From Naegleria gruberi (lineage: Eukaryota): DNA of 64,000 bases. The translations under genes were made by a program, and so were the position numbers. This document shows positions 11,446 through 62,672 of this stretch, one piece after another; the stretch's first letter is position 1, and the number at the start of each line of letters is the position of its first letter. The stretch lies in NCBI GenBank assembly GCA_000004985.1, contig GG738848.1; one strand, given 5' to 3'. The notes beneath the pieces are model-generated. The model was not told the DNA's origin. It worked only from the letters and a program-made list of their open reading frames with translations, and searched no databases.

Positions 11446-12672
11446 ATGAGCAAACGAAATAGACAAGATTTTGAAAATTATCATCAATTTATTAATTCGG
11501 AGGAAATATTCACTAACAATTTTAATATTATGGAAGAGAAGGCAAAAAAGAGTGTGAAATTCCAACAAGAAATATTTTCAGATGATGTTTGTTTTGAAAT
11601 AATTTCCATGATTGATGATTCATGGTTTATTTTAAATAATTGTTGTTTAATTTCAAAACAATTCTTTAATGTGATCAAGGAACGTTCAAAACTTGTTATT
11701 CAATTTAACAAAAAATTTACAAAGAAACGAGTTCAATTATTCATGAAAAGTCAATTCATGAATAGTATTGTTAATCTTAAAGTTTCTCGCCGGTTACTTG
11801 ACTCTTTAGAACAACCCAAATTCATAAGTGAAATGAAACAATTAACATCACTTAATATTTCTGACAATCAAATTGGCTTAGAAGGAGCCAAATACATCAG
11901 TGAAATGACACAATTAACATCACTTGATATTAGTGTAAATCGAATTGGTGTTGAAGGAGCTAAATTCATAAGTGAAATGAAACAATTAACATCACTTGAT
12001 ATTAGTGTAAATCGAATTGGTGTTGAAGGAGTTAAATTCATAAGCGAAATGAAACAATTAACATCACTTGATATTTCTGACAATCAAATTGGCTTAGAAG
12101 GATCCAAATACATCAGTGAAATGACACAATTAACATCACTTGATATTAGTGTAAATCGAATTGGTGTTGAAGGAGCTAAATTCATAAGTGAAATGAAACA
12201 ATTAACATCACTTAATATTAGTGTAAATCGAATTGGTGTTGAAGGAGTTAAATTCATAAGTGAAATGAAACAATTAACATCACTTGATATTTCTGACAAT
12301 CAAATTGGCTTAGGAGCCAAATACATAAGTGAAATGACACAATTAACATCACTTGATATTTCTGTAAATCGAATTGGTGATGAAGGAGCTAAATTCATAA
12401 GTGAAATGAAACAATTAACATCACTTGATATTTGTGACAATCAAATTGGTGTTGAAGGAGCCAAATTCATAAGCGAAATGACACAATTAACATCACTTGT
12501 TATTACTAGCAATCGAATTGGTGTTGAAGGAGCTAAATTCATAAGTGAAATGAAACAATTAACATCACTTGATATTTCTGGCAATCGAATTGGTGATGAA
12601 GGAGTTAAATTCATAAGTGAAATGAAACAATTAACATCACTTAATATTAGTGTAAATCGAATTGGTGGATGA
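11446..12672 (+). CDS. F-box-like / LRR protein, paralog of 2999..4240
   Basis: 408-aa ORF with the same F-box-like N-terminus and 72-bp LRR units (ISEMKQLTSLDISVNRIGVEGAKF). The stop TGA arises within a repeat unit (attggtgGatgaagg versus the canonical attggtgatgaagg). Confidence 0.65.
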   Translation: MSKRNRQDFENYHQFINSEEIFTNNFNIMEEKAKKSVKFQQEIFSDDVCFEIISMIDDSWFILNNCCLISKQFFNVIKERSKLVIQFNKKFTKKRVQLFMKSQFMNSIVNLKVSRRLLDSLEQPKFISEMKQLTSLNISDNQIGLEGAKYISEMTQLTSLDISVNRIGVEGAKFISEMKQLTSLDISVNRIGVEGVKFISEMKQLTSLDISDNQIGLEGSKYISEMTQLTSLDISVNRIGVEGAKFISEMKQLTSLNISVNRIGVEGVKFISEMKQLTSLDISDNQIGLGAKYISEMTQLTSLDISVNRIGDEGAKFISEMKQLTSLDICDNQIGVEGAKFISEMTQLTSLVITSNRIGVEGAKFISEMKQLTSLDISGNRIGDEGVKFISEMKQLTSLNISVNRIGG

Positions 12673-19434: not shown

Positions 19435-22400
19435 TTATTGAAAGGATCCAAGTTGAATCTTGTTGTGTTTTTGAACCATTGCATAGAACATGGATGAGTG
19501 ATCGTTTAATAATTGTGTTGGACTTGCAAATTCTTTCACAATTCCATCATCAATGACCACAACTTTATCATAATCCAAAATAGTTTCCAATCGGTGGGCA
19601 ACACAAATGACAGTACATTTCTGGGAGAATTCATTTCTCAAGACTTGTTGGATTAGTTTGTCAGTTTCCAAATCGCAGAGAGCTGTGGCTTCGTCCAATA
19701 CGAGAATTTTACAGTTTCGAATAAGTGCTCTGGCAAGACAGAGTAATTGTCTTGTACCTGCTGAGATGTTTTCTCCATTTTCTGATATTTCCATTCCTAA
19801 TCCTGTTGCTCGAGGTTGAATCTCATCACTTTCTTCATTCGAAAGTTGGAATAATTTATCTTTCATTCCAACCTTTTCCAATGCATTCCAAAGCTCCCGA
19901 TCTGTAAATTGTGAATATCCATCAAGATTATCTCTTAATGTTCCTTTAAAGAGTGTTGGCTGTTGAGGAATGATACACAAGGCACTTCTCAAAGTTTCTA
20001 AAGGAACATTTCTAATATCAATTCCATCTACCAAAATGGAAGATTCTGATTCAATTTCTTGCATTCTGAATAGAGATTGGATTAAACTTGATTTTCCACA
20101 ACCTGTCCTTCCACAAACAGCAATTCTTTCCTTTTCCTTAATAGTTAAATTAATTCCTTTAAGAACTAATTTGTTAGTCACTTGATTATTCGACTCTAAA
20201 CTCTTGTACCTCATTAATACATTGTTGAAATTAATGTTTCCCTCACTCGCAAAGCTTTCAACTTTTTCACCTACTCCCTCAGGTTCATATTTTTCACTTT
20301 CCAAATTTGAATATTGGTCAATTCTTTGAATGGAAACTAAACCATTTTCTATCAATACCAATAAATAAGACAAGTAATATAAAACATCAAAGTTTGAAGT
20401 AGCTTGTAGAATAATCATTCCAACAAGTGGACCTCCAGATGCTAAAACACTTGACATGATAATAACCGAAACGGCAAGACCACCCAATATTTCATTTCGA
20501 ATATCAAAGTATTTGTACATGCACTGAATATTATATCTCACGTGTACGTGGTTATCTGCCTTAAATTCGAATAAATCTTTCATTAATTCTTCCTTTCCAA
20601 ATGCACGAATGGTTTGAAGGCCATTAAGAGTTTCGGATATTTGAGAACTGAGTGGAGATGAATAAATTCCAGACAATGTTGACAATTCTCTCAATGTAAC
20701 TCTAAAGTAACTTTGATAATACAAGATTATTGGGAATAAAATAACTAAAATAAATATGGAAAATGGAGAAAGTATTAAAATGGTAACTAGGCCAAAAATC
20801 CAAAACATGAGAACTGGAACAAACTCTCTCAACAATGAATTCAACTCACTATCAATTTGATTAGTATCTCTGGTAAATCTTGCAATAATTCTACCCACTG
20901 GTGTATTATCAAAAAAGGTAATACAAGAATTAACAATACTGTTCATGAGTTTTTCATGAAGTTTCTTTGCAGTATTCAAATAATGGGATAGAGCAAGGAA
21001 ATTACCCATCACATCTACGCATACATAAAGAATAGCACTTCCTAAATAAGTCATTAAATAGAAAATTAAAGTGAAATTTTCATATTTCTCATCAGTTGAC
21101 CATTTGGTAAGGACATATTGATGAACAACATCAAGAATTTTGAATATAATTCCAAGAATGCAAATAACTACAAATATTGGCTTGTTATAACCAACAGCAA
21201 ACTTGAGAAGAGTTTTGTAATTTTCCCAAACTGTTCCCTTCACTCGTTGTTCTTCTTCTATGGATGTGAATTTCTCCAATGATTCGTCATCATTTGGAAG
21301 TAGTTGAAGAGTTGGCTTGATTTCTTCTTGTTCAGTTTCGAATAAATCTTCTTCGACTTCTTCCTTCTTTTTACTAAACTCATCAATCAAATTTCTAAAT
21401 ACATTATTGGAATCTTGATAAAGTTCATGATAAGTTCCATTCTGAATGATTTTTCCATCTTCAAATACAAGAATTCTCTCTGCTTTGTCAATAAAGTGAA
21501 TTTGATTCGTGACCATAATTGTTGTTTTACCAGCTTCCAAAAGTGGAAGTATTCCAAATTTCATAATATGATCTGCAGTGTGAACATCAACTGCTGAGAG
21601 AGGATCATCCAATAGATAAACATCTGCGTTCGAATAGAGACATCTTGCTAAGGAAACTCTCAATTGTTGACCTCCTGACAAGTTGACACCATTTTCACCA
21701 ATCATACTCAAATCTAAAATTTCTTTTGAGATTTGATAAAGATCAGTTTCTAAATTGCATGCGTGTAATACTTTGGAATATCTTTCCGAATTAAATTCTT
21801 CACCAAAAGTTATATTTTCACGAATAGTTTGGTTTCTAATCCAAGAATCTTGTGAACAGTAGGCATATTTGAGTTTAGATTGTTTTTGGAAAGTGGAACA
21901 GCCATCATCTATTAGTCTAGTTTCTCCCAATAATGAAGATAAGAAAGATGACTTTCCAGAACCGACCTTTCCAATAACACAAATAAACTCACTCTTTCTA
22001 ATTGACAAATTCATTCCTTTCAAACAAGAAACAGGTTCAGTAGAATCAACAGGATCCCAAGTAAATGAAGCATCTTTCATTTCTGTAATTATTTCATCAT
22101 TTTCCACTTGGGCAATTTGGTGTGAAACTTCTTCAGCTCTCAGAAACTTGACAATTCTGTTAAATCCAGTTACTGCTCTTGAAACTTGTAATGCAGATGA
22201 AGGAAGTTGAATTGTTTCATATCTTACCAATTCCAAAGCATTAAGGAAGGAGAATGCAAGACTAACACTCAAAGATTGATTGCTGAAATAACAAAAATGG
22301 ACGAAACTGACAAATGAAATGAAAGGAGCAAAAGTATTCCACAAGCATTCCATTCCTGCGTCTGAAATGAACCCCTTCTTAATATTTCTCATCTCAGTTT

Positions 22401-23391
22401 CTCTAATATTCATAATCTTGTCTTTAAATAGTTTCTCCATTGTATAATATTTGACAAATCTCATAGCAGAAACTAATTGTGAAATAATTTCACTTCTTTC
22501 GTCCTGGTTCGACTCTATAATCTTTTCCATTCTCTGCTCCCAAATCATACAAACAATAGAAATTGGAATAATCACAAGTAAAATGGCAGAGAATCCAACA
22601 AGTGCTGAAATTCCTAGAAGAAATATTGAGAAGGAAATGGAAACTGAAATGTAAACAAAAGCTCCAATGATAATTTCAACATGATAGTAAAACCATTCGA
22701 ACTTTTCAGTGTCAGTCGTTGCAATATTCATAACCGTTCCAGTTGAGTATTCTTGCTTGGAGCTAGAGTTTAGTTTAAGTGTCTTGTTGTAAATTGCATT
22801 AGAAAGGGAACTCTTTGTAAACTCTCCAATTTCTTGAGCAATGAATAGGCCGTGATCTGCACAGAATGTTTTCACAACCTTACAAATAAATAGGATTATA
22901 CAAAAACCAACAATATATGAAACTGATTCAATATTCAAGTCATTATTGGAAAGTGTACTTTCACAATATATCAAAATAATGTTCAAAATGAATAATCTTG
23001 CAACTTCTGAACCAATCAATATCAATTTCAATACAAATGCCCAAGCAATCTGTAAAAAGTACAACTTGACAAAAAACCAAGCACATTTCCATGTGGAAAT
23101 TTCAGCTGAATTCTCAAATGTTTCAATAAACTTTTCAAAGGGTTTCGAGCTTGATCTAAATCCCCATGATGGCTGCATCTTGGTCAATTCATTCAATTCT
23201 AAAAATCCTTTAGAAAAAACCTTCTTAATCATTGGCTGTACTGAACTAAACGTGAATGCACTCCATAAATGTCCAATCGAACATCCATTAGAATATGCTG
23301 TTTCGTCATATATCGTTTCCTTCCTTCTAAATGTTGAAGAGCATTGGGACATTTCAAGTTGTTGTTGTGTTTTTTTGATATTTTCATTCAT
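19435..23391 (-). CDS. ABC transporter, ABCC/MRP-type full transporter (TMD-NBD-TMD-NBD)
   Basis: 1318-aa ORF. NBD1: Walker A GKVGSGKSSFLSSLLGE and signature LSGGQQLRVSLARCLY. NBD2: Walker A GRTGCGKSSLIQSLFRM and signature-like ISAGTRQLLCLARAL. Two 6-TM blocks. Confidence 0.9.
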   Translation of the reverse strand: MNENIKKTQQQLEMSQCSSTFRRKETIYDETAYSNGCSIGHLWSAFTFSSVQPMIKKVFSKGFLELNELTKMQPSWGFRSSSKPFEKFIETFENSAEISTWKCAWFFVKLYFLQIAWAFVLKLILIGSEVARLFILNIILIYCESTLSNNDLNIESVSYIVGFCIILFICKVVKTFCADHGLFIAQEIGEFTKSSLSNAIYNKTLKLNSSSKQEYSTGTVMNIATTDTEKFEWFYYHVEIIIGAFVYISVSISFSIFLLGISALVGFSAILLVIIPISIVCMIWEQRMEKIIESNQDERSEIISQLVSAMRFVKYYTMEKLFKDKIMNIRETEMRNIKKGFISDAGMECLWNTFAPFISFVSFVHFCYFSNQSLSVSLAFSFLNALELVRYETIQLPSSALQVSRAVTGFNRIVKFLRAEEVSHQIAQVENDEIITEMKDASFTWDPVDSTEPVSCLKGMNLSIRKSEFICVIGKVGSGKSSFLSSLLGETRLIDDGCSTFQKQSKLKYAYCSQDSWIRNQTIRENITFGEEFNSERYSKVLHACNLETDLYQISKEILDLSMIGENGVNLSGGQQLRVSLARCLYSNADVYLLDDPLSAVDVHTADHIMKFGILPLLEAGKTTIMVTNQIHFIDKAERILVFEDGKIIQNGTYHELYQDSNNVFRNLIDEFSKKKEEVEEDLFETEQEEIKPTLQLLPNDDESLEKFTSIEEEQRVKGTVWENYKTLLKFAVGYNKPIFVVICILGIIFKILDVVHQYVLTKWSTDEKYENFTLIFYLMTYLGSAILYVCVDVMGNFLALSHYLNTAKKLHEKLMNSIVNSCITFFDNTPVGRIIARFTRDTNQIDSELNSLLREFVPVLMFWIFGLVTILILSPFSIFILVILFPIILYYQSYFRVTLRELSTLSGIYSSPLSSQISETLNGLQTIRAFGKEELMKDLFEFKADNHVHVRYNIQCMYKYFDIRNEILGGLAVSVIIMSSVLASGGPLVGMIILQATSNFDVLYYLSYLLVLIENGLVSIQRIDQYSNLESEKYEPEGVGEKVESFASEGNINFNNVLMRYKSLESNNQVTNKLVLKGINLTIKEKERIAVCGRTGCGKSSLIQSLFRMQEIESESSILVDGIDIRNVPLETLRSALCIIPQQPTLFKGTLRDNLDGYSQFTDRELWNALEKVGMKDKLFQLSNEESDEIQPRATGLGMEISENGENISAGTRQLLCLARALIRNCKILVLDEATALCDLETDKLIQQVLRNEFSQKCTVICVAHRLETILDYDKVVVIDDGIVKEFASPTQLLNDHSSMFYAMVQKHNKIQLGSFQ

Positions 23392-36476: not shown

Positions 36477-39400
36477 TCAAAGTCTTATTTTATCTTCGTT
36501 TTCTTCAGTTTCTTGTTGTTCTATAGCTTGTTGGTCATCAACTGGTGGATATGTTTCTTCCTTTCTATCCATGAAGAATGCCCTAGTACTGCCCATCAGG
36601 TTCAAACTATTACGAAGAGATGCATTGTGCATATTTTCAGCTCTCATTCTGGTAGATCTAAATGATGCGAACTTGGAGTTTGATTCTGGTTGACTTGTGG
36701 CTGATTGTACTTGTGTTAGTTGTTGTAAATGTTTGAAAACTTCAACTTCTACTGGATTTTCATGATCTACATTATGAATTACAGACCCTCCAAAACTGAC
36801 ATGAGCATTAGAATCTGCACCTTCCTCTTGATGAGGGAAAATTTCAAGTGGATCAACGTGATGTTTCTTCTTGAGTAAGTAGGTCTGGCAAAGTCCTTTT
36901 CCTTTCACATCAATTTTCCGTTCCTCAAATTCCATTCCCAAATCGTGAACTCTTTCATAGGTAGTTCTAGAAATTTGGATACGACCTGGTTCTCCTGTTG
37001 ATTCCATTCTTGAGGCAGTATTGATGGTATCTCCCCACAAGTCGTAGGCAAACTTTTTGATTCCAATCACACCAGCAACAACTGGTCCTGTATGTAGGCC
37101 GACACGAATGTTTACATTGGTATTCTCGCTGCAATTGTATTCCTTGATTACCTGAAGTGTATCAATGGCGAATCTCAATGACCTTTCAGGGTGATCTGAT
37201 TGAGCATTCAAATCAATACCTCCAACACAAAAGTAAGCATCTCCAATGGTTTTAATCTTTTCCAAATTATACTTTTCAGTGAGCAAATCAAATCCATTCA
37301 CAATAGCATTCAACATTAATACAAGTTCAGATGGATTCATTCCAGAACTAATTCTTGTAAACCCAACCATGTCAGAGAAGAATACAGTTACATCATTGAA
37401 TTTTTCAGCAATGAATGTCTCTCCTCCCTTCAATTTGGAAGCAACACTCTCTGGCATGATATTCAACAATAACTGTTCAGATTTCTTCTTCTCTTCAGCT
37501 AGTAACATGTTTTGCTTCTTCTCAGGTGTGAAATCCTTGATGAAACAACTAATAACTGGCTTCTTGTTGAAAATACTAACAAACAAATTGACTTTGGAAG
37601 GGAATTTGGTTCCATTCTTTCTGTAGCATTCCAATTCAAGAGTTTCACCAAAAGGTTGTGTTGCATTGACCATTTGTTGAATAATGGTTTCCAAACGTTG
37701 TCTATTATTATCGGAAGGATCGAATAGCTTGGTGAGCTTTTCTCCTAAAACATCACTATTAGTCATGCCAAACATCTTTTGAGCAACTGGATTGAAAAGT
37801 TCAATGTCACCTTGTGAGTTACACAAAATGGCTCCATCAACTGCTGCATTCAAAATGGCTCTCACCTTACCGTCTCCACCACTACCTTCTTCTTCGTTGG
37901 TTTGTTTCTTTGATATTCTTAATTTGCTTGGAAGATTATTGAAAAGAGCAAATTGTTTCAACTCTTCATTGGATTCCATAGCCTCAATTGGAAGGTAGTT
38001 GAGTAAACTTCTTAATTGGTTGGATTGATCCCAAATATTTTGAATTAAACCATATGTCAAATATCCTAAAATTGCTAAAATAATAAATCCAAAAACAGAA
38101 AATAGGATGGTAATGATGAGATTTGGAACTGACATTGATGATGAATAGAAAGTAAACAAGTTCAAGAATTTTTGCAACAAAATATTGCACTTGTCATCTG
38201 TAGTAAGCATTGTCTTGTAAAGGTCAATCAACTTGTAATTACTAAAGTAAACATCCTCTGAAAATGTATTACTAGCCGTAGAGAAATCAACAATTAAATC
38301 ATTAATACTACTACAAGAGTAATAGGTGGTATTAGTACAGTTGGTACTTTCAAGAATAGCCGTAACTTCAGTGCTTGATGACGTAAATGAAGATTCATAT
38401 TGTAAATTATTCCAATAACTTGCAAGTGATCCCGTCAGTGCCTTATTCTCATCATGGAAAGAGTCAATTTCTGAAGATGTTATCAGCCTGGGGTCATTGA
38501 TACTGGAAATGTCTGCATATCTCTTGGCAATAAAAATCTCCGAAAGTCTAAATGTTATAGAGACAGAGGTGGTCATAATTTTAACACCACTTTCAATATT
38601 CTCGAGTGCAAGTATTGCTTTTTGGGAGTCTAATTGAAAATCCAAGAAAAGCATAGACATGCAGCATACTGTCAAGAAAATAGTCGCAACAATCAAGAAG
38701 GAAACTGAAAATTGAGGTCTTTCAAATAATGTAGGATCTTTCACATCAATATCTTCACCACTCTTTGATTCCAAGTGGTGATAGATTTTTCCAATATAGT
38801 CCTTTGTGATTGATCTTGACATGAACTTGATTGTTGACTTAATTTGTCTCAATTTAAACGTAGAGAATGCCACAAAAACAATTGCAATAATACCATAAAC
38901 AGATATCGAAATAGCATAAAAGTAAATAAACTGCTCTTGCAACATTGTGTACTGTTCCTTATTTCTTTGTAAAAATAATTCACACATGTTTGAAAAACTA
39001 GCGGTTTGAACTTTTCTATTCTTCCAGAAAAACATAAAGTTAGAAGCAGTTGTTGTGTTTGAATATGATGTCATGTCCATTGCCAAATATTCATTGGTGT
39101 TTTTGATTATAATATCATTGATTTCTGAAAGGGAGGCATTTCTCTTTTGATTGAAAGAGTCTGCACTTGTAAAGTTGTTATCATAGTAAACAACTGGTAA
39201 ATAAAGATCATGAGTAGAACTGGTAAAATCAGATAGCATTCCTTTTGTGAATTTTGATGCTGATTTCTTGAGAGATTGAAGAACTGTTACATATGTTCTA
39301 ACTCTTGCCTTGTGTGCTGCAAAATAGCTTGTTGTACTGTTGGATCCATTGACCATAGTTGCAGCAATATCGTTACTGTACAATGGAAACATCTTGTTAA

Positions 39401-41726
39401 AGTTTTGAATCATTCTAATCTCTTTTAACATGTATCTTGGGAAGAATTGTGGAATGCAAACATAATGTGCAACTGCCACATTATTATCAATTTGAATAGA
39501 GAAACTCACACCGAGACCAATTGCAACAGTCAAAATACTCAATGAAAAGCAAAAGATAAAGCCAAAGAAGTACATCAAAATGTTTGATCCCTTTGTTCTA
39601 TTGAGGGCGGATCTTATTTGCAACTCCTTCTTGATAATTGATGAACGATTTTCTACTCCATCAAACTCAGACGACTCTGAAACAGACTTTTCATCAAAGT
39701 TGAACTTGTTATTTTTCGATTCAACATTTGGCATGTATGGCAGGACCTTATTTCCTTTGACAACTGGTTTCTTGTGGGAAACTTTACGAGTTTCCTCATC
39801 CTCAATAGTTGCTGCCTCGTCATACATTTCATTGGCTCTTTCTTTGTCAAATTTAATTTCTTCCAAAAACTTGGCATATGTTCTTAAAACATTCTTATTG
39901 TTACCATAATTTGACATTAAATTGGTTAGCACAAGGGTACATTGTTTTGTGAGTGATGTGATTTGACTGTTCAATGAGTCAATCTTGTCTACGGATACTG
40001 ATTCACTCATCATTTCCTTCCAAAATGATTTGTGTAAAGAGCTGATAATAGCATGCTTCTTTTCAATTTTCTGAATGATATGTTTGACTTCTAATAGCTT
40101 TTTACCATCTTCTAGAGATATCTCCAACTCTTTTGTTCTGAGACTGATGGAAAATCTTTGAATCAGATTTGGTAAGTTTTTAGTGGCCTTCTCCAAAAGT
40201 TTCAATCCAGCACTTTGTTGACCTTCAATAAAGTTTCCTGTAATCACAGCAGCAATTACTAAAAGGTCAATATTCTGATAAGTTTTCTGACTAGCAACTC
40301 CTTTGATAAAGCATTTGGCCATTTCAATTTCTGTCAAATTACCAATTGATAAACCTTCCTTTGCAGTCTTGACACAAAATTTCAAGAAGAGAAACAATCT
40401 TCTAGTCTTTTTTGTTTCCTCAATTTCATGTAAAATGTTGAGCGCTTGTCTCTCAAGAATATACTTGGGATTAATAAAATCCAAATTGTCACTCTTAATT
40501 AGAGAATCAAGACCCTTCTCCAAGTGATCGAGAAATACTGCCTTGATATCTTTCATAATCATTCGAGTGTACATCTCTAATGAAATACTTCCAACTGCAA
40601 AGAAGACAATCATTACAAAGAAGGTTATTCCCATCAATCCTAAACCAAGTCCAAACTCATTCTCTTTGTTTACATAGACAGATACCACTCCACACAAGGA
40701 AGAACCAACTGCAGCACACATAAAACCAAAGTAAACTGAATTCTCCCATCTTGTATAGAATGGAATAAAGTACAGAAAAGATGCAGCAAGAATAAATCTT
40801 GTTAGAAAGTAATAAACTGCTTGAATGACAATGTAATCGTCTGAAACCAAGCATGTAAAAATGTAAAAACTTGTTGAAGCAAGAAAGTTGAAGAATAAAA
40901 AGTGCAAATCGTACGAAGCAAATGGTGTCTTACTTTTAGCATGTACATCCATCAATGTGTGGGTTCCAACAAATAATGAAAGTGGCACTGCAAACACTGA
41001 CATAATTCCAAGAACCATCATGGCAATATTACCACTTCCGTAACAATATACATCTGGGTATCTCTGTAAAACTTGATGTGGTGTCAAAGCTGGTGCAACA
41101 ATCACCGATGATGCATAGTTACAATCGAGGAAACCCAACAAGAGCCAACTAATTGGCATAGATAGTAGACACGTTGTTGCAATAATTATCTGCGTGGCAA
41201 TCTTTATCTTTGGCCAATATTTGCTCATTGTATAGACTGACCTATAGGCCAATGCCAAAGTAATAACCGAAACAATAAGAAACGCAAAGAAAACCGAAGC
41301 AATAATTAAGGCTGGTATATATGGAACATTTTCCAATCCAAATGTCATTGGATAATTGAGTGCTCTAGCTATCCATTTACCATATTCTCCATAGTTATAG
41401 TCTGGTTGTATTCCAATGAATAGTCCTATCCAAATAATGTACAAGTGCACGCACAACATGACGATTTTGTCTTTCCTTGAGATACATTCTGTCGAGTCGT
41501 GCAAACTCATCAACAAAGTTATCAGAGATTCTTCAACTTTTGCCATGAAGGTCATATTATTAAATTCAGTGTCCAAATCAGTTACTGAAACAACAGATTC
41601 AGAGCCAGAACCTGCAAACTTTGGTGGGCCTGCATTACTCCCCACCGAAAATCTTCTTGCACGTGTATCATATTGAGAGGGATTGCCCATACTGATGGCA
41701 TCGTCTGTAATGTTGAGATTATTCAT
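36477..41726 (-). CDS. Giant multi-pass membrane protein with C-terminal PAS domain and class III adenylate/guanylate cyclase catalytic domain
   Basis: 1749-aa ORF. Two blocks of about 6 TM helices with a large extracellular region between them. PAS: [30 protein letters not shown]. Cyclase: [12 protein letters not shown]...[14 protein letters not shown]...[36 protein letters not shown]. Confidence 0.9.
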   Translation of the reverse strand: [1749 protein letters not shown]

Positions 41727-54917: not shown

Positions 54918-55308
54918 ACTAATTAAAATGCTTTTTTGAATTCACAAATCCTTAACCATACCATTTCTGATGATAACCAAGGTTTGCTTTGCTTATGGAT
55001 AAATTCCTAAATGCTAGTTCCTTCAAAGCACTTTGCAACGTGGAAGGATTCGTAATTTGTTTTACTCTGATTTCCTTCATTTAGCATCTTTTACAAATAG
55101 AATAAGGATAATAGGATCCTTTCAAATTGAAGTTGAGTTGTTTGTTAAGCAGTAAGAGAGGAAAGAGAGGAAATTAGGGCCTTTCACAACAACCCAAACA
55201 CTTCTCAAAGACTGGAAATGGAAGTCGAGTTGGTGGTGAATCGCAACAAGACGAAACAAACTGAGAGATTAATTCCACAACACAAATCATAAAAAAAACC
55301 ATCAAACC

Positions 55309-56424
55309 ATGTTAGTGAACCGCAATGTTTGTTGCATTATCATGATAACGTTGTTGCTGTTGTTGTTGGTTGCAAACGTTACTTTAGCAGAGCAACAAGA
55401 TATTTCGCCATCCACCACAAAACGAACATCGGTTAGTGTTGGTTTCACAAAAGCTCTAGATGTTGGAATGGCTCAAGTTGCAACAAGTGACAAATGGCAA
55501 CAAATATTCGAATCATTGGGTATGTTGTTTGATATATCTCAGTACTAACAAGAGTAATATTTCATTGCTTGTCAATGTTATTGTCGATCGAATAGGCATT
55601 CCATTTAATGTACCAAAATGTTCTTCAAAATTTGGATCGTCATTCCCTTCCAATCCATTTCCTTCATCTAAAACCCAATTGAATATTTGTTATGAAGAAC
55701 CTGCTCAAGTTTGGGCTTCCATTTTCAAAGGTGCTGGTGATTTATTAGTGGAAGTGCTCAACAAACAATACAGCATCAATTTGAAAGCCAATCATTTAAT
55801 TTTGAATACTACAGAGCTTGGATACTTTGATAGTATGAAGGCTGGTGTGGATTCTGGATTGTGTGACATTTGTACCTCCAATGTAAGTTTTTTCTCGGAT
55901 GTTGTTGTTAAATGATGATATACTAATGAAATCTTGTTGTTGTTGTAATTGAATAGATAATTAAAACACAAACAAGAGCCGAACAAGTCAACATGAATTG
56001 TCCATATGGTAGCTCTAGTTTAGCATTCCTTCGTTCCGAACTTGATCCATCAAGATTTAATACTAGCAAAGAACTCAACAATACTGATGCAATCATTGTT
56101 GTTTATGGAGGAACCTATTTTGAAACTGTTGCTAGAACAATGTTTCCTGCTGCCAAACTAATTCTAGAACCTGGTGGTTATGACGCCACTTATGGATATA
56201 TCAAGGATAAACGTGCCCATGCAACCATTGCTGATGCTGTTGATTTAAGTTATTGGTTGAAAAACAACAAGAACCAGTGTACAAATTGTTATATTAGATT
56301 CTTTGGAGATCCATATGAGTACGGAAGCGTTACTACTAAATTGTATGATAGTGAAGGAACGAAGAATGGTTATTCAATGTTAATGCTGTTATTGTTGGTG
56401 CTTTTCTGCTTGTTCAATATATAA
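55309..56424 (+). CDS. Secreted, probably GPI-anchored, NMT1/SsuA-like (type 2 periplasmic-binding-protein fold) solute-binding protein, 3 exons (55309..55519, 55596..55882, 55957..56424)
   Basis: Signal peptide MLVNRNVCCIIMITLLLLLLVANVTLA. Mature N-terminus VSVGFTKALDVGMAQVATSDKWQQIFESLG|IPFNV resembles the start of SsuA/NMT1/THI5 binding proteins. C-terminal hydrophobic tail GYSMLMLLLLVLFCLFNI. Introns have GTATGT/GTAAGT donors, TACTAAC/TACTAAT branch sites and AATAG acceptors, and the frames join exactly. Confidence 0.5.
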
Positions 56425-56805
56425 CATATCATGGTTACTAGATTACTAGGCATTAAATAAATTAAATTTGTATTATAATTATTGGTAATTGATGATGCCT
56501 TTCCACTTGAAAAATTCCGTACAGGAAATTACATTCCAATTTAATAGAAGTATTAAATCTTGTTGTTAATTCACTATTAATACTATTAGCACTAGGTATA
56601 AATGATGTCCTATTACTTCCAAACCATCACGATGTAACAAGAGCTAGCAAATCATCTCGTCCGTGTGCGTAATAAAATCAAAGCAAGTTGCTGAAGAATT
56701 TTGATAGATTTTTTATTTTTAAAAATTTTTTTATTGTAAAACTAATCACGAGTTCATCATCAAGAAAGGAAGAAGCAAATGGAAATAATAAATTTATAAA
56801 AAAAA

Positions 56806-58791
56806 ATGATCAGAAAGAAGGTTCGTAGAAATCCTGCCTCCGGTGATGGAGCACAATCTCTCGAGGAATTGAATAGGATCAGAAAGGAACAATACTTGAA
56901 GAAGAAGGCCATGCTTCAAGATTTGGTCAATGCACAAAAAAAGGACATTCCGATCCAGTATATTATCCTGATCAAACAATATGAAGATGAAACATTTGAT
57001 GAAATTTATGTAGCCCTTGATCCGATGCTACATATATTTAGTTTTTTAAGTCCACATGATTTATTGCTCAAGGTTGGATTGGTTTGTAAATCTTGGTATT
57101 TCCTTTCTTTTAGAACCAATTTCCTTTGGCAATCTTTGTATTATAAAGAATTTGGAGATGTACAAGCAAGACCTATTCATACTGCTCTCCTTGATGAAGA
57201 TGATGACTCTGAATTTGATGGACATTGGAAGAAGGTGTTCAGTTTTAGAGTGGATTTGAGAAACAAATGGTACAATAATTCACCAGACAGAGTTGGTTAT
57301 TGTGATATTATGGAGAGTGAAATTGTAAAAAGTACAAGAACTAAATACACCAATAAGGGAGAACTTTTCAGAAAGGATGCACACACAGCTTGTGTTGGAG
57401 AGGATGAAATTGGAACAGAGTCAGAAAATAAGAAATTGTACAGAGTTAATCCAGAGGACAGATCGACCATCACTACAATGTGTTTGATTGGATCAGATCG
57501 TTTATTGGCAGGTGATGCTAGAGGCGTCATTAAATTGTTCAACTTGCGATCTTTCCAACAAGTGAAAAAGTTTGTTGGAGCTCATCAAACCAGTGTACAC
57601 AAAATTGTTGCTATCACTCCTGAACACTTGAAATTCAAATCGGATGACATGTCAGTTTTGGGATATTCATTCAAACTTGAAGCAACACATCATTACTTCT
57701 TATCTAATGATTTCCAAAACAATTCTATTTGTGTTTGGGATTTGGAGACTGGTTTGCTATTGAAGAGATTTAGAGGAACTGACAAGGTTCACTCTGTATC
57801 TGGATCATCCACACACCTGAATGGAACTGTATTAGATATGAGAATTTGTACTATTAATGAGTATGGACCTGTACTCTTTGTAATTACACCAAAGAATGTA
57901 GAAATTTATGAACTCAACACTTTAAGATTATTGAAATTATATAGACCTTTCTATGAGCCAAAGAAGCATGAAATTGTCACCAAGAAACTCATTGATGCTG
58001 CCATTGAATCCTTTGATAAGGATGACATTGAAGTAGAGCAGGAGGAAGAAGAGGCTGATGATAATTTTGATGATGATACTGGTATGAATCAACCATCAAA
58101 AACTTTGGTTTGTTTTGAATTGTTAGATGGAAATACATTTGCCTTTGTCAGTGGTGATATGAAACTCTATGTGTACAATTTGAGTAATGGTATTTGTGTC
58201 AAGAAAATGGACATGAAGCATACTAAGATGCTTGACATTGATAATTACAATAGGCCAACTTCCATTGATTCCTTCAAGAAGAAGTATAACAAATTCAAAG
58301 AGTCTGACGTGCTCATCACGCAAATAGCCAAGACCAATTTGGAGGGTCAAATTGCTTTGGTATTGAGCTTGAGACCATCAGGTTATAATGGGTATGATCC
58401 ACTCAAATCCTACATCAAGTACTTTGATTATAGATTTGGTTGTGAGAATCCTGTGAGGTCATGTCAAGTCGGAAATTATGACTATTACTCTTCTGGTAAA
58501 ATCTTCTTTGATGACGATAAGATTATTCAATGCACTCAGAGTCATATTCAATTATTGGGACGTTGGGATGGTACTTTGAAACAAGAATTGTTGCCAACTC
58601 TCAATGTTGGATATTATACGATTGCCAACTTTATTGCAGATGATCGTTTCCTAATTATGGGTACATCCTTTGGTGGTATTGTTGTGAATGATTATGGAGG
58701 AAATTTATTGTATTGGAGTGATTTGAAGGGTAGAAAACTTGTGGATGATGAACCAAAAGAGGAGGATAAAATGGATGATTCTCAAGATTAA
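56806..58791 (+). CDS. F-box / WD40-repeat protein
   Basis: 661-aa ORF. F-box LDPMLHIFSFLSPHDLLLKVGLVCKSWYFLS. Downstream WD-like repeats (...GDARGVIKLFNL..., ...ICVWDLETG...). Confidence 0.65.
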   Translation: MIRKKVRRNPASGDGAQSLEELNRIRKEQYLKKKAMLQDLVNAQKKDIPIQYIILIKQYEDETFDEIYVALDPMLHIFSFLSPHDLLLKVGLVCKSWYFLSFRTNFLWQSLYYKEFGDVQARPIHTALLDEDDDSEFDGHWKKVFSFRVDLRNKWYNNSPDRVGYCDIMESEIVKSTRTKYTNKGELFRKDAHTACVGEDEIGTESENKKLYRVNPEDRSTITTMCLIGSDRLLAGDARGVIKLFNLRSFQQVKKFVGAHQTSVHKIVAITPEHLKFKSDDMSVLGYSFKLEATHHYFLSNDFQNNSICVWDLETGLLLKRFRGTDKVHSVSGSSTHLNGTVLDMRICTINEYGPVLFVITPKNVEIYELNTLRLLKLYRPFYEPKKHEIVTKKLIDAAIESFDKDDIEVEQEEEEADDNFDDDTGMNQPSKTLVCFELLDGNTFAFVSGDMKLYVYNLSNGICVKKMDMKHTKMLDIDNYNRPTSIDSFKKKYNKFKESDVLITQIAKTNLEGQIALVLSLRPSGYNGYDPLKSYIKYFDYRFGCENPVRSCQVGNYDYYSSGKIFFDDDKIIQCTQSHIQLLGRWDGTLKQELLPTLNVGYYTIANFIADDRFLIMGTSFGGIVVNDYGGNLLYWSDLKGRKLVDDEPKEEDKMDDSQD

Positions 58792-60358: not shown

Positions 60359-62672
60359 ATGACGAACATGGTTACACCCATGCATCACTCGATGGATCAA
60401 TTTGCGTTTGATGAAGATCCCTCGCTTAATGATTCGCAGCGGAAGAAGAGAAAGATATCGGCAAGAAAGGTGCTTAGTTTGCGGAATATTATCATTACAC
60501 TGATAGCTTTATTTATGGTGATTATTGCGTTTGTAGTGTGGATTATAGGATTCACAGCTAGTAATTCATCAACTCGTTTGTTGAGTGAGAGGCTGAAGGA
60601 GAGTTCTTCCGAGAGAGTAGTAGTAATGATTGAGAGTATGTTCTATCAGGCGCAGGATTTGGCTCTCACATTCAAGAATTTCTATGATCAACAATCCGAT
60701 TACATGTCCAACTTTTTTGTAAATAGGACAATATATGAAAGAGCAGTCAAATCCATGTTGTTTTCCTCACTCATAACTAGGCAATCTGCAATGAATTCTG
60801 TTAATTTTGTTTTTAACACTGGTCATATTGTTGGATGGGAGTGCTATAACTTGGGTTGCAATTATATAATTTCGAGAGAGAGCGATTTAACCATGATGGC
60901 TTACAATTACGATTTTAAGGCAGGTAAGCTCAAAGATACTACAGTATATCAAGTACCTGGATTCAATGCTGCCACTATTATTCCAACATACAAGGTGGTT
61001 ACAGATCCAATTTACAAAAATAGTACGGTGAGAGGAACTGGAATGTTTTTCCCAATTAGTAGACATGTTGTTTTCGTGGATACCTACGTTACATCGATTG
61101 CACTTCCGTACTATGATACGGATGAAAAGTTGGTAGGTGCTGCCAACGTTGTATTTTATACTGACACACTGAATAGTAAGGTCAGAGAAGCTAATCCTTC
61201 ACAAGAGGGTTACATTATAGTTATCGAGGATAGTGGTGTGATTGTTGCTCACTCATTTGCTAATCAGACAGCCATTATGGAAAAACCATGTTATTTAGAA
61301 GGAAATGCAGCAGTGAAATCATTATGTTCCTATTTTTTTCCACCAAATGTAACTACCATTAGTTCTAGATTCCCTAGTAGTACTCAAAAATTTTCTTTGG
61401 ATGGTTTGTCAATTCAAAGAACTGAAACATCGTTCCCTGGTGTAAAGTGGCATATTTTCATTGCCATTCCAGATAAGGAAATATTAGGTGATATTGTAGT
61501 GCAGTCGTATAATACCATTTGGATCTCTGCACTTGTATTGGTACTTGCAATTATAGTCTCTGTTCTGACAACCTTCTCACTGATGAGAACTCTTTCACAA
61601 TTGGCCAGGTGTTTCGATGCTATTCGTAACTTGGATTTGGATGCATCCACCATTGTTAAAGCCACTTCAGGAAGAACCTATGTTTATGAATTGGGAGAAT
61701 TACAAAACAATTTCAAGAGTATGATTGTTACCCTTAAATCTATTAGAAAGTTTGTTCCAGTCCAAATCATTAAAAAGATTCTCATCACTGGCAAGGAAGC
61801 ATCACTGGGTATTCAAGATGCTGATGCAACTATCTTTTTCCTTGATATTGCTGGATTTACCACTCTTTCAGAAAAGATGGAACCAAAGGCTTTGGTAGAT
61901 ATGATTTGTTCTGTATTTGAAACTTGTTCTCAGGCAATTTCAAGACGTGATGGTGTTATTGACAAGTTTATTGGTGATGCAGGTATGTACATATTAATTC
62001 ATGTATTTATTTATAATTATATTAGTTATGGCATTGTGGAATGTTCCAACTAAAACTCCAGATCACGAATATCATGCCATTCAAGCAGCCATTGAAATTC
62101 AAACAGAAATGGAAAAGAAGAATATACCAATTCGTATAGGAATCCATAGTGGTCGTGTAAAAGCTGGTAATATTGGAAGTGTTGATAGATTTAGCTTTAG
62201 TGTCGTTGGAGATGGGGCCAATTTAGCCAGTAGATTAGAAGGTGCCAACAAGGCTTACTCTTCAAAGATTATTTGTAGTAGTAGTACAATGGAGGTTGCT
62301 CTCATTAGTGAGGAACGATTAGTTCTTCATGATCCAAATATAAATCGACTCATGTATAGAAGATTAGATAAATTGAAAGTGAAAGGTAAAGAACAACCAG
62401 TATTGACCTACCAAGTCTTTCTCTCAAGCCATCCAAAACATACCAATGATTTAGACGCAAGAGATGTTAAACTCTACGAAAAGGCTTTTGATTTGTTGAT
62501 GAAAAATCAATATAAGGAAGCTCTTGCAATATTTTATACTCTCATAGATAAGGCTCCTAAAGATGTTGTTTTGGAAAAGAAGATTGAGTTGTGCAAATCT
62601 TTAGTTGAGAATGGTGGTTTTTATGATGATGGAAAGAAGTTTGATGGCTCTATTGAATTTACTGAGAAGTAA
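60359..62672 (+). CDS. Receptor-type class III adenylate/guanylate cyclase with extracellular Cache-like sensor domain, 2 exons (60359..61982, 62026..62672)
   Basis: TM1 (IITLIALFMVIIAFVVWIIGF), about 330-aa extracellular domain with a Cache-like signature (...ALPYYDTDEKLVGAANVVFYTD...GYIIVIEDSGVIVAHS), TM2, then cyclase DATIFFLDIAGFTTLSEKMEP...KFIGDA|(43-nt GTATGT...TTAG intron)|VMALWNVP...IGIHSGRVKAGNIGSVDRFSFSVVGDGANLASRLEG. Splicing restores the GDAVMA motif. Confidence 0.8.

What the first reader, a model, noticed from the sequence alone, without database searches (positions are those of the whole stretch)
55309..56424. Bacterial-type NMT1/SsuA-like solute-binding protein made as a secreted, apparently GPI-anchored, 3-exon eukaryotic gene
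The mature N-terminus (VSVGFTKALDVGMAQVA...WQQIFESLGIPFNV) is typical of SsuA/TauA/NMT1 periplasmic binding proteins. The gene has a eukaryotic signal peptide, two spliceosomal introns with textbook TACTAAC branch points, and a C-terminal hydrophobic GPI-attachment-like tail. This looks like an anciently acquired prokaryote-type binding protein repurposed as an extracellular sensor or scavenger, for example of sulfonate, nitrate or pyrimidine-precursor-like ligands.
Basis: partly seen in the sequence, partly recalled or inferred. Interest (0 to 1): 0.5.

Follow-up and report, generated by a model that had tools for sequence, protein, structure and literature searches.

The report
Surface-tethered amino-acid-type binding protein in Naegleria
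This is a real three-exon Naegleria gruberi gene for a secreted, probably GPI-anchored protein with the fold of bacterial amino-acid-binding proteins (family 3, not NMT1/SsuA); it belongs to an uncharacterised multi-copy family of Naegleria and its relatives, which makes it a moderately interesting candidate cell-surface sensor.

Summary
The gene is real. Exons 55309-55519, 55596-55882 and 55957-56424 (+) encode 321 aa. Homologues without introns read straight across both junctions. A 64%-identical environmental homologue has introns at the same two sites with unalignable sequence, and dN/dS is 0.10-0.17.

The window is Naegleria gruberi: the neighbouring gene is NAEGRDRAFT_78227 at 100% identity.

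The protein has a signal peptide, 3 sequons, 6 conserved cysteines and a 15-residue hydrophobic C-terminal tail. The tail sits behind a Ser-Glu-Gly candidate GPI attachment site, and this tail architecture recurs in about 20 homologues.

No NMT1, SsuA or phosphonate-binding signal was found. [quoted passage not shown]
- the family profile against PDB gives E=1e-17, and all 41 hits are family 3;
- an AlphaFold model of a 47%-identical homologue has pLDDT 88.8;

The residues that hold the alpha-carboxylate and alpha-amino groups of the ligand are conserved: Arg173, Thr219 and Asp259.

Named members all come from Heterolobosea (three Naegleria species, Willaertia, strain BB2). UniProt already labels several as "solute-binding protein family 3". 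This locus itself has no full-length protein in the collections searched.

Most likely it is a lipid-tethered Venus-flytrap binder of an amino-acid-like ligand. Its partner and role are unknown, and horizontal origin is plausible but unresolved.

The parts
55309..55519 (+). Exon 1: start codon, signal peptide, and the first two helices of the mature protein. Ends in phase 1, splitting Gly71.
   Evidence: spliced ORF. (homologues align across the junction). (intron at the same site in L005/L006).
55309..55389 (+). Signal-peptide coding part (M1-A27). It has a basic n-region (R5), a 15-residue hydrophobic core, and the motif T-L-A|E.
   Evidence: Read from the sequence. Kyte-Doolittle maximum is 3.41 at residue 10. 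The equivalent region of the P0002 model is a low-confidence helix. SignalP was not available.
55520..55595 (+). Intron 1: 76 nt, GTATGT...AG, with TACTAAC 47 nt upstream of the 3' splice site.
   Evidence: In the 99% allele L004 it carries indels, unlike the exons apart from one deletion. It is absent in L001 and L002.
55596..55882 (+). Exon 2: Cys-containing loop (C79, C102), strand 1, helix 1, and the start of the ligand-binding loop (C160).
55883..55956 (+). Intron 2: 74 nt, GTAAGT...AG, with TACTAAT 29 nt upstream of the 3' splice site.
   Evidence: The position is shared with L005-L007, whose introns keep a CTAAT element.
55957..56424 (+). Exon 3, including the stop codon: the core of the family-3 SBP domain, the hinge strands, the CxxC motif (C274, C277), and the C-terminal anchor signal.
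   Evidence: alignments to family-3 SBPs cover residues about 125-290.
55975..55977 (+). Codon of Arg173, the equivalent of GlnBP Arg75 / LAOBP Arg77, which binds the ligand alpha-carboxylate.
   Evidence: Invariant in 22/22 family members. Aligned to the conserved Arg of AncCDT-1 and AncQR and of GlnBP.
56233..56235 (+). Codon of Asp259, the equivalent of GlnBP Asp157 / LAOBP Asp161, which binds the ligand alpha-ammonium.
   Evidence: Asp in 20/22 members. Aligned to the conserved Asp.
56350..56352 (+). Codon of Ser298, the best candidate GPI attachment (omega) site. It reads S-E-G, followed by the 6-residue spacer TKNGYS.
   Evidence: Inspection against the omega / omega+2 small-residue rule. 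No GPI predictor could be run.
56377..56421 (+). C-terminal hydrophobic tail (M307-I321, 15 residues, nothing after it): the GPI-signal-like or membrane-anchor segment.
   Evidence: Kyte-Doolittle 3.45. The same feature is present in about 20 homologues although the sequence is unconserved. It is a helix in the P0002 model.

Best explanation
The locus is a functional three-exon gene of Naegleria gruberi.

Shown:
- The product enters the secretory pathway through an N-terminal signal peptide.
- It folds into a two-lobed Venus-flytrap domain of the bacterial solute-binding-protein family 3 type, probably stabilised by up to three disulfides.

Inferred from sequence features:
- It is tethered to the outer face of the plasma membrane by its C-terminus. 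The most likely route is replacement of the 15-residue hydrophobic tail by a GPI anchor at about Ser298.

Inferred from conserved residues:
- The cleft between the lobes keeps the three residues that hold the alpha-carboxylate and alpha-amino groups of the ligand in characterised family-3 proteins: Arg173, Thr219 and Asp259.
- The most likely ligand is therefore a free alpha-amino acid or a close derivative, bound by hinge closure.

Speculative:
- Eukaryotes lack the cognate ABC importer. The liganded protein would then act as a surface sensor or co-receptor (or capture protein) that reports amino-acid-like compounds, for example from bacterial prey, to a membrane partner.

The gene is one paralogue of a multi-copy family found in Naegleria, Willaertia and other Heterolobosea.

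The confidence figure is for the statement as a whole. By part it is roughly 0.9 for a secreted family-3 Venus-flytrap protein, 0.65 for GPI anchoring, 0.55 for an amino-acid-like ligand and 0.35 for a sensor or co-receptor role.
For: Gene model and selection:
- Searches support the exon structure.
- dN/dS is 0.10-0.17.

Organism:
- The neighbouring ORF is NAEGRDRAFT_78227 at 100% identity.

Family 3 assignment:
- The single sequence matches AncCDT-1 at E=2.5e-5, and all 17 PDB hits are family 3.
- The family profile gives E=1e-17, and all 41 hits are family-3 amino-acid binders, CDT or GluR0.
- 11 of 22 members hit Pfam SBP_bac_3.
- The weak tail of the 1.8-billion-protein search consists of GlnP-type tandem SBP_bac_3 plus permease proteins.

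Fold:
- The AF2 model of homologue P0002 has pLDDT 88.8.
- Foldseek's top 50 are all family-3 binders.

Ligand triad:
-.
- AncCDT-1, the best match, binds L-arginine (PMC7683729).
- SBP_bac_3 proteins bind mainly amino acids (PMC10443332).

Extracellular features:
- Signal peptide, sequons N141, N201 and N207, and six family-conserved cysteines.

Anchor:
- The terminal hydrophobic tail preceded by a small-residue spacer is conserved as a property across the family.

Sensor-type use of the same domain in relatives:
- Fusion to a transmembrane segment plus protein kinase (P0119).
- Fusion to NIDO and EGF modules (P0058).
- N-terminally membrane-anchored forms (P0069, P0073).
Against: - There is no expression, localisation or binding data for any family member, and no paper mentions them.
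- The query alone is below Pfam's gathering score (19.2 vs 26.4 bits).
- The structure model is of a 47%-identical homologue, because the spliced protein could not be submitted.
- Two canonical backbone-donor positions are not conserved: GlnBP G68 and T70 correspond to N166 and I168 here.
- The N-terminal lobe is strongly diverged, so the side-chain pocket and hence the specific ligand cannot be read.
- No GPI predictor was run.
- A C-terminal transmembrane anchor is not excluded.
- No partner protein is identified. Neighbouring genes differ between N. gruberi and N. fowleri.
- Two environmental relatives carry frame-breaking deletions, so individual copies may be dispensable.
Confidence: 0.6

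Rival explanations
1. One reading: an NMT1/SsuA/TauA-type binding protein for sulfonate, nitrate or pyrimidine-precursor-like ligands.
For: Both families share the general type-II periplasmic-binding-protein fold. Some bacterial tandem SBP_bac_3 proteins also give secondary weak NMT1 hits (P0068 and P0096).
Against: - There is no NMT1, Phosphonate-bd or SsuA hit for the query even at E<=10, nor in NCBIfam.
- 0 of 22 family members hit these models, whereas 11 of 22 hit SBP_bac_3.
- The conserved Arg/Thr/Asp triad is the amino-acid signature.
Confidence: 0.03
2. The same extracellular binding protein, but held by a C-terminal transmembrane helix with no cytoplasmic tail, or shed, rather than by a GPI anchor.
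For: - The tail is 15 hydrophobic residues and forms a helix in the homologue model.
- No GPI predictor or biochemical test was available.
- No paper on Naegleria GPI transamidase was found.
- Some relatives use other anchors, namely an N-terminal transmembrane segment.
Against: - The tail ends at the very C-terminus with no basic stop-transfer residues.
- It is short for a transmembrane span.
- It is preceded by a polar spacer and a small-residue S-E-G site.
- This combination recurs across about 20 divergent homologues, which is the classical GPI-signal architecture.
Confidence: 0.25
3. The fold has been recruited for something other than reversible ligand binding. It could be an enzyme, as cyclohexadienyl dehydratase evolved from a family-3 binder, or an adhesion or structural surface protein.
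For: - Cyclohexadienyl dehydratases and MltF are among the sequence and fold hits.
- One relative is fused to NIDO and EGF adhesion-type modules (P0058).
- The N-terminal lobe and part of the binding loop are diverged.
Against: - The best matches are binding proteins: AncCDT-1 binds L-Arg (PMC7683729), and the others are the Trp-, Gln-, Glu- and Cys-binding proteins.
- The Arg/Thr/Asp triad that CDT-lineage proteins no longer use for amino acids is under strong conservation here.
- The position of the CDT general acid (Glu173, PMC7683729) could not be mapped reliably.
Confidence: 0.1
4. A decaying or non-functional gene copy, or bacterial contamination.
For: - Two environmental relatives have frame-breaking deletions (L004: 37 nt; L001: 53 nt).
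- No full-length protein for this locus is present in the protein collections searched.
Against: - The window copy has an intact 321-codon reading frame and canonical splice sites.
- dN/dS is 0.10-0.17.
- All family-invariant residues are present.
- The gene has spliceosomal introns and lies between ordinary N. gruberi genes.
Confidence: 0.03

Closest known systems
Bacterial polar amino-acid binding proteins of SBP family 3 (Pfam PF00497). Examples: E. coli GlnBP, Salmonella LAOBP, the GlnPQ substrate-binding domains, and the reconstructed L-arginine binder AncCDT-1 (PDB 5T0W).
   Same: - Profile similarity of E=1e-17.
- Conserved Arg, Thr and Asp that bind the alpha-carboxylate and alpha-ammonium of the ligand.
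- Extracytoplasmic location.
- In Gram-positive bacteria these proteins are also lipid-tethered to the membrane surface.
   Different: - About 15% identity only.
- A eukaryotic gene with introns.
- No ABC permease or ATPase partner.
- Six conserved cysteines and N-glycosylation sequons.
- C-terminal (GPI-type) rather than N-terminal lipid tether.
- Two extra N-terminal helices and a roughly 30-residue Cys loop before strand 1.
- The usual C-terminal helix pair is missing.
Ligand-binding cores of ionotropic glutamate receptors and prokaryotic GluR0.
   Different: - Not interrupted by, or fused to, a channel domain.
- No Lig_chan or Lig_chan-Glu_bd Pfam hit.
- Sequence-level hits are to bacterial binders, not to eukaryotic iGluRs.
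PfVFT1 (Plasmodium falciparum PF3D7_0606800, PDB 5JKQ), a stand-alone secreted Venus-flytrap protein of a protist.
   Same: - A small (about 35 kDa) protist protein with a signal peptide.
- Membrane-associated and of unknown function (PMC13199436).
   Different: - Only 5% identity in the structural alignment, so no evidence of common recent origin.
- PfVFT1 has no recognisable membrane anchor and is thought not to be GPI-anchored (PMC13199436).
- It is a single gene rather than an expanded family.
Automatically annotated heterolobosean homologues. Examples: N. lovaniensis C9374_002538, C9374_008029, C9374_008685 and C9374_002535; N. fowleri FDP41_000021 and FDP41_012477; N. gruberi NAEGRDRAFT_68554; and Willaertia magna ABK040_006381.
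   Same: - The same family: E from 3.5e-92 to 2e-38 against the profile.
- The same length, signal peptide, cysteine pattern, triad and C-terminal tail.
- UniProt names several 'Solute-binding protein family 3/N-terminal domain-containing protein'.
   Different: - Only 27-47% identical to the window protein, so they are paralogues or distant orthologues.
- No synteny with the N. fowleri locus.
- The N. fowleri gene FDP41_012477 has no introns.
- The window gene itself has no full-length entry in the collections searched.

Membership tests
SBP family 3 (Pfam PF00497 SBP_bac_3; polar amino-acid binding, type-II PBP) | Significant profile similarity to the family | tested here: met
   The query alone is sub-threshold in Pfam (E=1.1e-3, 19.2 bits against a 26.4 cutoff), but gives E=2.5e-5 to AncCDT-1 in PDB. 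The family profile gives E=1e-17 with 41 of 41 hits in family 3. 11 of 22 members hit PF00497, best 9.8e-8. hhalign against GlnBP gives probability 89.7%.
SBP family 3 | Two alpha/beta lobes joined by two hinge strands (type-II topology) | tested here: met
   [not shown]
SBP family 3 | Conserved Arg (lobe 1 loop), Thr/Ser (GT motif of lobe 2) and Asp that ligate the alpha-carboxylate and alpha-ammonium of an amino acid | tested here: met
   Arg173 is present in 22/22 members, Thr/Ser219 in 21/22, and Asp259 in 20/22. They align to GlnBP R75, T118 and D157 and to the equivalent residues of AncCDT-1 and AncQR.
SBP family 3 | Works with an ABC importer (permease plus ATPase) or a sensor kinase or chemoreceptor encoded nearby | tested here: not met
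   No BPD_transp_1 permease is in the window. The only ABC protein (19435-23391) is a full-length exporter-type ABC_membrane plus ABC_tran protein 32 kb away. This bears on how the protein works, not on homology of the domain.
NMT1 / SsuA / TauA / phosphonate-type binding proteins (PF09084, PF12974 and relatives) | Profile similarity to these models | tested here: not met
   No hit at E<=10 for the query. 0 of 22 family members hit at E<=0.01. None appears among the PDB or fold hits.
GPI-anchored proteins | Cleavable N-terminal signal peptide | tested here: met
   Sequence features (basic n-region, 15-residue hydrophobic core, T-L-A|E) and hydropathy. The feature is conserved in homologues. 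This is heuristic only, because SignalP was not available.
GPI-anchored proteins | C-terminal signal: small omega and omega+2 residues, a 5-10 residue polar spacer, and a 12-20 residue hydrophobic end with no cytoplasmic tail | tested here: met
   S298-E-G, then the spacer TKNGYS, then M307-I321. The same architecture is present in about 20 homologues with unrelated sequences. This is by inspection only.
GPI-anchored proteins | Positive call by a trained predictor (PredGPI, big-PI, NetGPI), or PI-PLC release or mass spectrometry of the anchor | not testable with these tools
   No such tool or data was available. Literature searches found no Naegleria-specific evidence.
Ionotropic glutamate receptor ligand-binding domain | S1/S2 halves flanking a pore-forming channel domain; Lig_chan and Lig_chan-Glu_bd signatures | tested here: not met
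   The binding domain is contiguous, with no transmembrane region other than the terminal tail, and there are no Lig_chan hits.
Cyclohexadienyl dehydratase (enzyme derived from family 3) | Catalytic general acid (Glu173 of PaCDT) and loss of amino-acid binding | not tested
   The residue could not be mapped reliably, because PDB chain numbering and paper numbering differ. The best hit is the non-enzymatic AncCDT-1 (PMC7683729).

The most novel reading that the evidence does not exclude
The heterolobosean proteins would be a new class of eukaryotic chemosensory component. They would be GPI-anchored, disulfide-stabilised and possibly circularly permuted family-3 Venus-flytrap binders. They would capture free amino acids or related prey-derived compounds at the amoeba surface and hand the signal to membrane receptors. 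Candidate receptors are the many receptor cyclases and kinases of Naegleria. The arrangement would be analogous to bacterial binding-protein-dependent chemoreceptors and to GPI-anchored co-receptors of animals. The family would have arisen from a bacterial tandem-domain amino-acid importer taken up by an ancestor of Naegleria and Willaertia.
Probability: 0.15. Interest if true: 0.65.

Novelty: new variant of a known kind. Interest (0 to 1): 0.4.

Why it matters
Stand-alone Venus-flytrap binding proteins on eukaryotic cell surfaces are rare and mostly uncharacterised; Plasmodium PfVFT1 is one example.

Naegleria finds bacterial prey, and N. fowleri finds host tissue, by chemotaxis whose receptors are unknown. 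A multi-copy family of surface-tethered proteins that keep the amino-acid-binding triad gives concrete candidates that can be tested directly, for example by a thermal-shift ligand screen on the recombinant ectodomain or by PI-PLC release.

Members in N. fowleri would be surface-exposed, lineage-specific antigens.

The case also illustrates how a bacterial transport component can be refitted with a signal peptide, disulfides, glycosylation sites and a GPI signal in a eukaryote.

On the practical side, this locus has no full-length protein in the large protein collections searched. The three-exon model proposed here would fill that gap in the N. gruberi gene set.

Tried and rejected
1. NMT1/SsuA assignment: rejected.
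I worked around this with an alignment of P0001 plus window exon translations (A3), and by modelling homologue P0002 (A6).
3. Two metagenome-contig scans with conserved peptides found nothing.
4. The word-indexed protein search is insensitive for this family. It returned 1 hit for the query and 5 for the profile. The exhaustive representative search returned 149.
5. Paralogue in the window: none.
6. Synteny with the N. fowleri locus: none.
7. Exact look-up of N. gruberi neighbours in the gene-position index: not on record, so the reference annotation at this locus could not be viewed.
8. Circular-permutation hypothesis. In the model, two N-terminal helices appear to replace the missing C-terminal helix pair. 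Four tests gave no support:
   - the permuted-HMM test gave no gain;
   - hhalign placed the N-segment on bacterial C-terminal helices, but at E=0.15, no better than a reversed control;
   - the offset-enrichment test was negative;
   The hypothesis is left open and unproven.
9. The afdb50 fold library was unavailable, so named eukaryotic structural neighbours could not be listed.
10. Literature searches for Naegleria solute-binding proteins, for locus tags and for the GPI transamidase returned nothing relevant.
Full report
**What is in the sequence**

Joining 55309-55519, 55596-55882 and 55957-56424 on the + strand gives a 966-nt reading frame of 321 codons. The introns are 76 and 74 nt, both GT..AG. 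Intron 1 contains TACTAAC. Intron 2 contains TACTAAT, so 'textbook TACTAAC' is true for one intron only.

The protein starts with a typical signal peptide: basic residue R5, a 15-residue hydrophobic core, and T-L-A|E at 25-28. It carries three sequons outside the signal peptide (N141, N201, N207) and ten cysteines. It ends in 15 hydrophobic residues (M307-I321) with nothing after them. In front of the tail lie a polar spacer (TKNGYS) and a small-residue triplet S298-E-G that fits the omega / omega+2 rule for GPI attachment.

**Is the gene model right?**

Four lines of evidence say yes.

- Intronless relatives read straight through both junctions. These are a metagenome contig (L001) and the N. 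fowleri gene FDP41_012477 (L002). In a 22-sequence alignment there is no gap at either junction.
- A 64%-identical environmental homologue, assembled from L005 and L007 into an intact 333-aa protein, has introns at exactly the same two positions. Its exons are alignable and its introns are not. It has a third intron that the window gene lacks.
- dN/dS between the two coding sequences is 0.17, or 0.10 for the mature core, with synonymous sites saturated. This indicates strong purifying selection on precisely these exons.
- A 99%-identical environmental allele (L004) keeps both introns. Most indel events fall outside the exons; the one exception is a 37-nt deletion in exon 2 that breaks the frame in that allele.

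The window copy is intact.

**Whose gene is it?**

The window has 34% G+C and is gene-dense. It carries genes typical of Naegleria:

- two class III cyclases with PAS or dCache sensor domains;
- RNI-type LRR proteins;
- an NHL/B-box protein;
- a G-alpha subunit.

The ORF immediately downstream (56806-58791) is 100% identical over 661 aa to NAEGRDRAFT_78227 of Naegleria gruberi.

The binding-protein gene has no full-length counterpart in the protein collections searched. The best hit in the 5.8-billion-protein collection is the 61%-identical fragment P0001. The only entries identical to parts of it are prokaryote-style ORF calls of single exons from contig L004 (P0027 and P0083). I could not view the reference annotation itself. 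'Unannotated' therefore means absent from these collections.

**What family?**

- Pfam at E<=10 returns only SBP_bac_3 (PF00497) at E=1.1e-3, which is below the gathering score.
- NCBIfam returns weak hits to EhuB and to the lysine/arginine/ornithine and cystine binding proteins.
- All 17 PDB sequence hits are family-3 binders, headed by the reconstructed L-arginine binder AncCDT-1 at E=2.5e-5.

I then needed more homologues. I built a scaffold alignment of P0001 plus the three exon translations, which hmmbuild turns into a full-length profile. I searched 1.84 billion representatives with it. This gave 149 hits at E<=1e-3, of which 27 were below 1e-30.

The strong hits are 290-340-aa proteins. 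Where a source name was looked up, it was always a heterolobosean:

- N. fowleri, N. gruberi, N. lovaniensis;
- Willaertia magna (several paralogues each);
- Heterolobosea sp. BB2.

UniProt already labels several of them 'Solute-binding protein family 3/N-terminal domain-containing protein'.

With a 22-member alignment (A5) the results sharpen.

- The PDB profile search gives E=1e-17 to AncCDT-1. All 41 hits are family-3 amino-acid binders, cyclohexadienyl dehydratases or GluR0.
- 11 of 22 members hit PF00497 individually. None hits NMT1 or Phosphonate-bd.
- The weak tail of the big search consists of bacterial GlnP-type proteins, that is, tandem SBP_bac_3 domains fused to a permease.

**Fold**

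An AlphaFold2 model of the closest intact full-length homologue in the database was built with the family alignment. This homologue is P0002, 47% identical by the alignment and 52% by tblastn. The model has mean pLDDT 88.8 and pTM 0.77.

- Foldseek against PDB gives E~6e-13. Its top 50 are all family-3 binders (Trp, Arg, Gln, Glu and Cys binders, CDT, GluR0) over about 220 columns.

The model is of a homologue, not of the window protein. The two align without major gaps outside the termini.

**Binding site**

HMMER and hhalign alignments place three window residues on known ligand-binding positions:

| Window residue | Aligns to |
|---|---|
| Arg173 | GlnBP R75 and the equivalent Arg of AncCDT-1 and AncQR |
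| Thr219 | GlnBP T118 |
| Asp259 | GlnBP D157 |

In characterised family-3 proteins these residues bind the alpha-carboxylate and alpha-ammonium groups of the amino-acid ligand. That statement rests on established knowledge of GlnBP and LAOBP.

In the family, Arg173 is invariant (22/22), Thr/Ser219 is present in 21/22, and Asp259 in 20/22. The stacking Phe148 (GlnBP F50) is present in 19/22.

AncCDT-1 binds L-arginine (PMC7683729), and SBP_bac_3 proteins bind mainly amino acids (PMC10443332). Two backbone-donor positions are not conserved (GlnBP G68 and T70 correspond to N166 and I168), and lobe 1 is diverged. The ligand class is therefore inferred, and the specific ligand is unknown.

**Eukaryotic refitting**

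Compared with bacterial binders the family has gained several features:

- a signal peptide;
- sequons;
- six conserved cysteines: C79, C102, C160, C181 and C274-x-x-C277;
- a C-terminal hydrophobic tail.

The tail is conserved as a property but not as a sequence in about 20 members. In each it ends at or within a few residues of the C-terminus and sits behind a Ser/Gly/Asn/Ala-rich spacer. That is the classical GPI-signal architecture.

I could not run a GPI predictor, and I found no Naegleria-specific literature on GPI anchoring. A tail-less transmembrane anchor remains a rival.

**How it probably works**

Shown:
- the gene structure and purifying selection;
- membership of the family-3 fold;
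- conservation of the ligand triad;
- secretory-pathway features.

Inferred:
- surface tethering by GPI;
- an amino-acid-like ligand bound by hinge closure.

Speculative:
- Because no ABC importer partner exists, the liganded protein signals to, or is captured by, another membrane protein.

Some support for a sensory use of this domain comes from environmental relatives with the same cysteine pattern. One is fused to a transmembrane segment plus protein kinase (P0119). One is fused to NIDO and EGF modules (P0058). Others carry an N-terminal membrane anchor (P0069, P0073). Their organisms are unknown.

Gene neighbourhood gives no clue. The flanking genes encode a TPR protein and an F-box/WD40 protein, and the N. 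fowleri member sits in a different context.

**Origin**

This fits an old transfer into an ancestor of Naegleria and Willaertia, but it is not a test. No donor clade was identified and no tree was built. I rate 'anciently acquired' as plausible and unresolved.

**An untested structural oddity**

The model has two helices of 16 and 9 residues before strand 1, and none after the last lobe-1 strand. Canonical family-3 proteins end with a 16 + 10 residue helix pair. This looks like a circular permutation, for which tandem GlnP-type domains would be a natural precursor.

Sequence tests were negative or no better than controls (domain 2, 80, 81, 86). I had no coordinates for a permutation-aware superposition. 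It stays an idea.

**Verdict**

The gene is a secreted, probably GPI-anchored, bacterial-type binding protein made from a three-exon Naegleria gene. It belongs to SBP family 3, the amino-acid type, and not to NMT1/SsuA.

It is one member of an uncharacterised, lineage-restricted multigene family whose domain is already recognised by automatic annotation in sister species. I rate the novelty as a new variant of a known kind, and the interest as moderate (0.4).

Noticed in passing
window 60359-62672 (+): Two overlapping ORFs together encode a dCache_1 extracellular sensor domain plus a class III adenylate/guanylate cyclase domain. They are probably one gene with an intron, lying 4 kb downstream of the binding-protein gene. 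No functional link was shown.
   Followed up: no
window 36477-41726 (-): A 1749-aa ORF with TmcB-type TPR repeats, a PAS domain and a cyclase domain. It is typical of the large Naegleria cyclase repertoire.
   Followed up: no
L004 (ENA ERZ929261, 1755 bp) vs window 55000-56660: An environmental allele 99% identical at aligned sites keeps both introns but lacks 37 nt of exon 2, which breaks the frame. The database proteins P0027 and P0083 are single-exon ORF calls from this contig.
   Followed up: yes
L001 (JGI 3300002220, 1628 bp), bases 846-890: The 61%-identical intronless homologue lacks 53 nt relative to the window gene (about 19 residues missing in the protein alignment before TIADAVD) and is frame-shifted there. 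It is either a pseudogene or an assembly error. This is the second independent disrupted copy.
   Followed up: partly
L005/L006/L007 (ENA metagenome contigs): The closest intact homologue (64% aa identity, composite 333 aa) shares both intron positions with the window gene. It has a third, 72-nt intron after DAVDLS, so intron gain or loss has occurred within the family. The N. fowleri gene has none.
   Followed up: yes
P0005 = NAEGRDRAFT_68554 (N. gruberi, 462 aa): This annotated N. gruberi family member contains about one and a half copies of the domain with near-identical repeated segments. It is either a tandem pair fused by the gene model or a real two-domain protein.
   Followed up: no
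L002 9177-11515 (-), N. fowleri VFQX01000013.1: The N. fowleri family member FDP41_012477 lies next to a 742-aa protein with a NIT domain, which is a bacterial nitrate/nitrite-type sensor domain.
   Followed up: no
P0119 (L008 1550-3553), P0058 (L009 651-3692), P0069, P0073: Environmental relatives of the domain occur in other architectures: with a transmembrane segment plus protein kinase, with NIDO plus teneurin-type EGF repeats, and with an N-terminal membrane anchor instead of the C-terminal tail. P0119 was confirmed to carry the family cysteine pattern. The organisms are unknown.
   Followed up: partly
AF2 model of P0002; window residues about 44-73: There are two N-terminal helices before strand 1 and no C-terminal helix pair, so the fold may be a circular permutation of the family-3 fold. 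Sequence tests were inconclusive.
   Followed up: partly
window 2999-4240 (+) and 11446-12672 (+): Two RNI-type leucine-rich-repeat (LRR_6) proteins of about 410 aa lie 7 kb apart.
   Followed up: no
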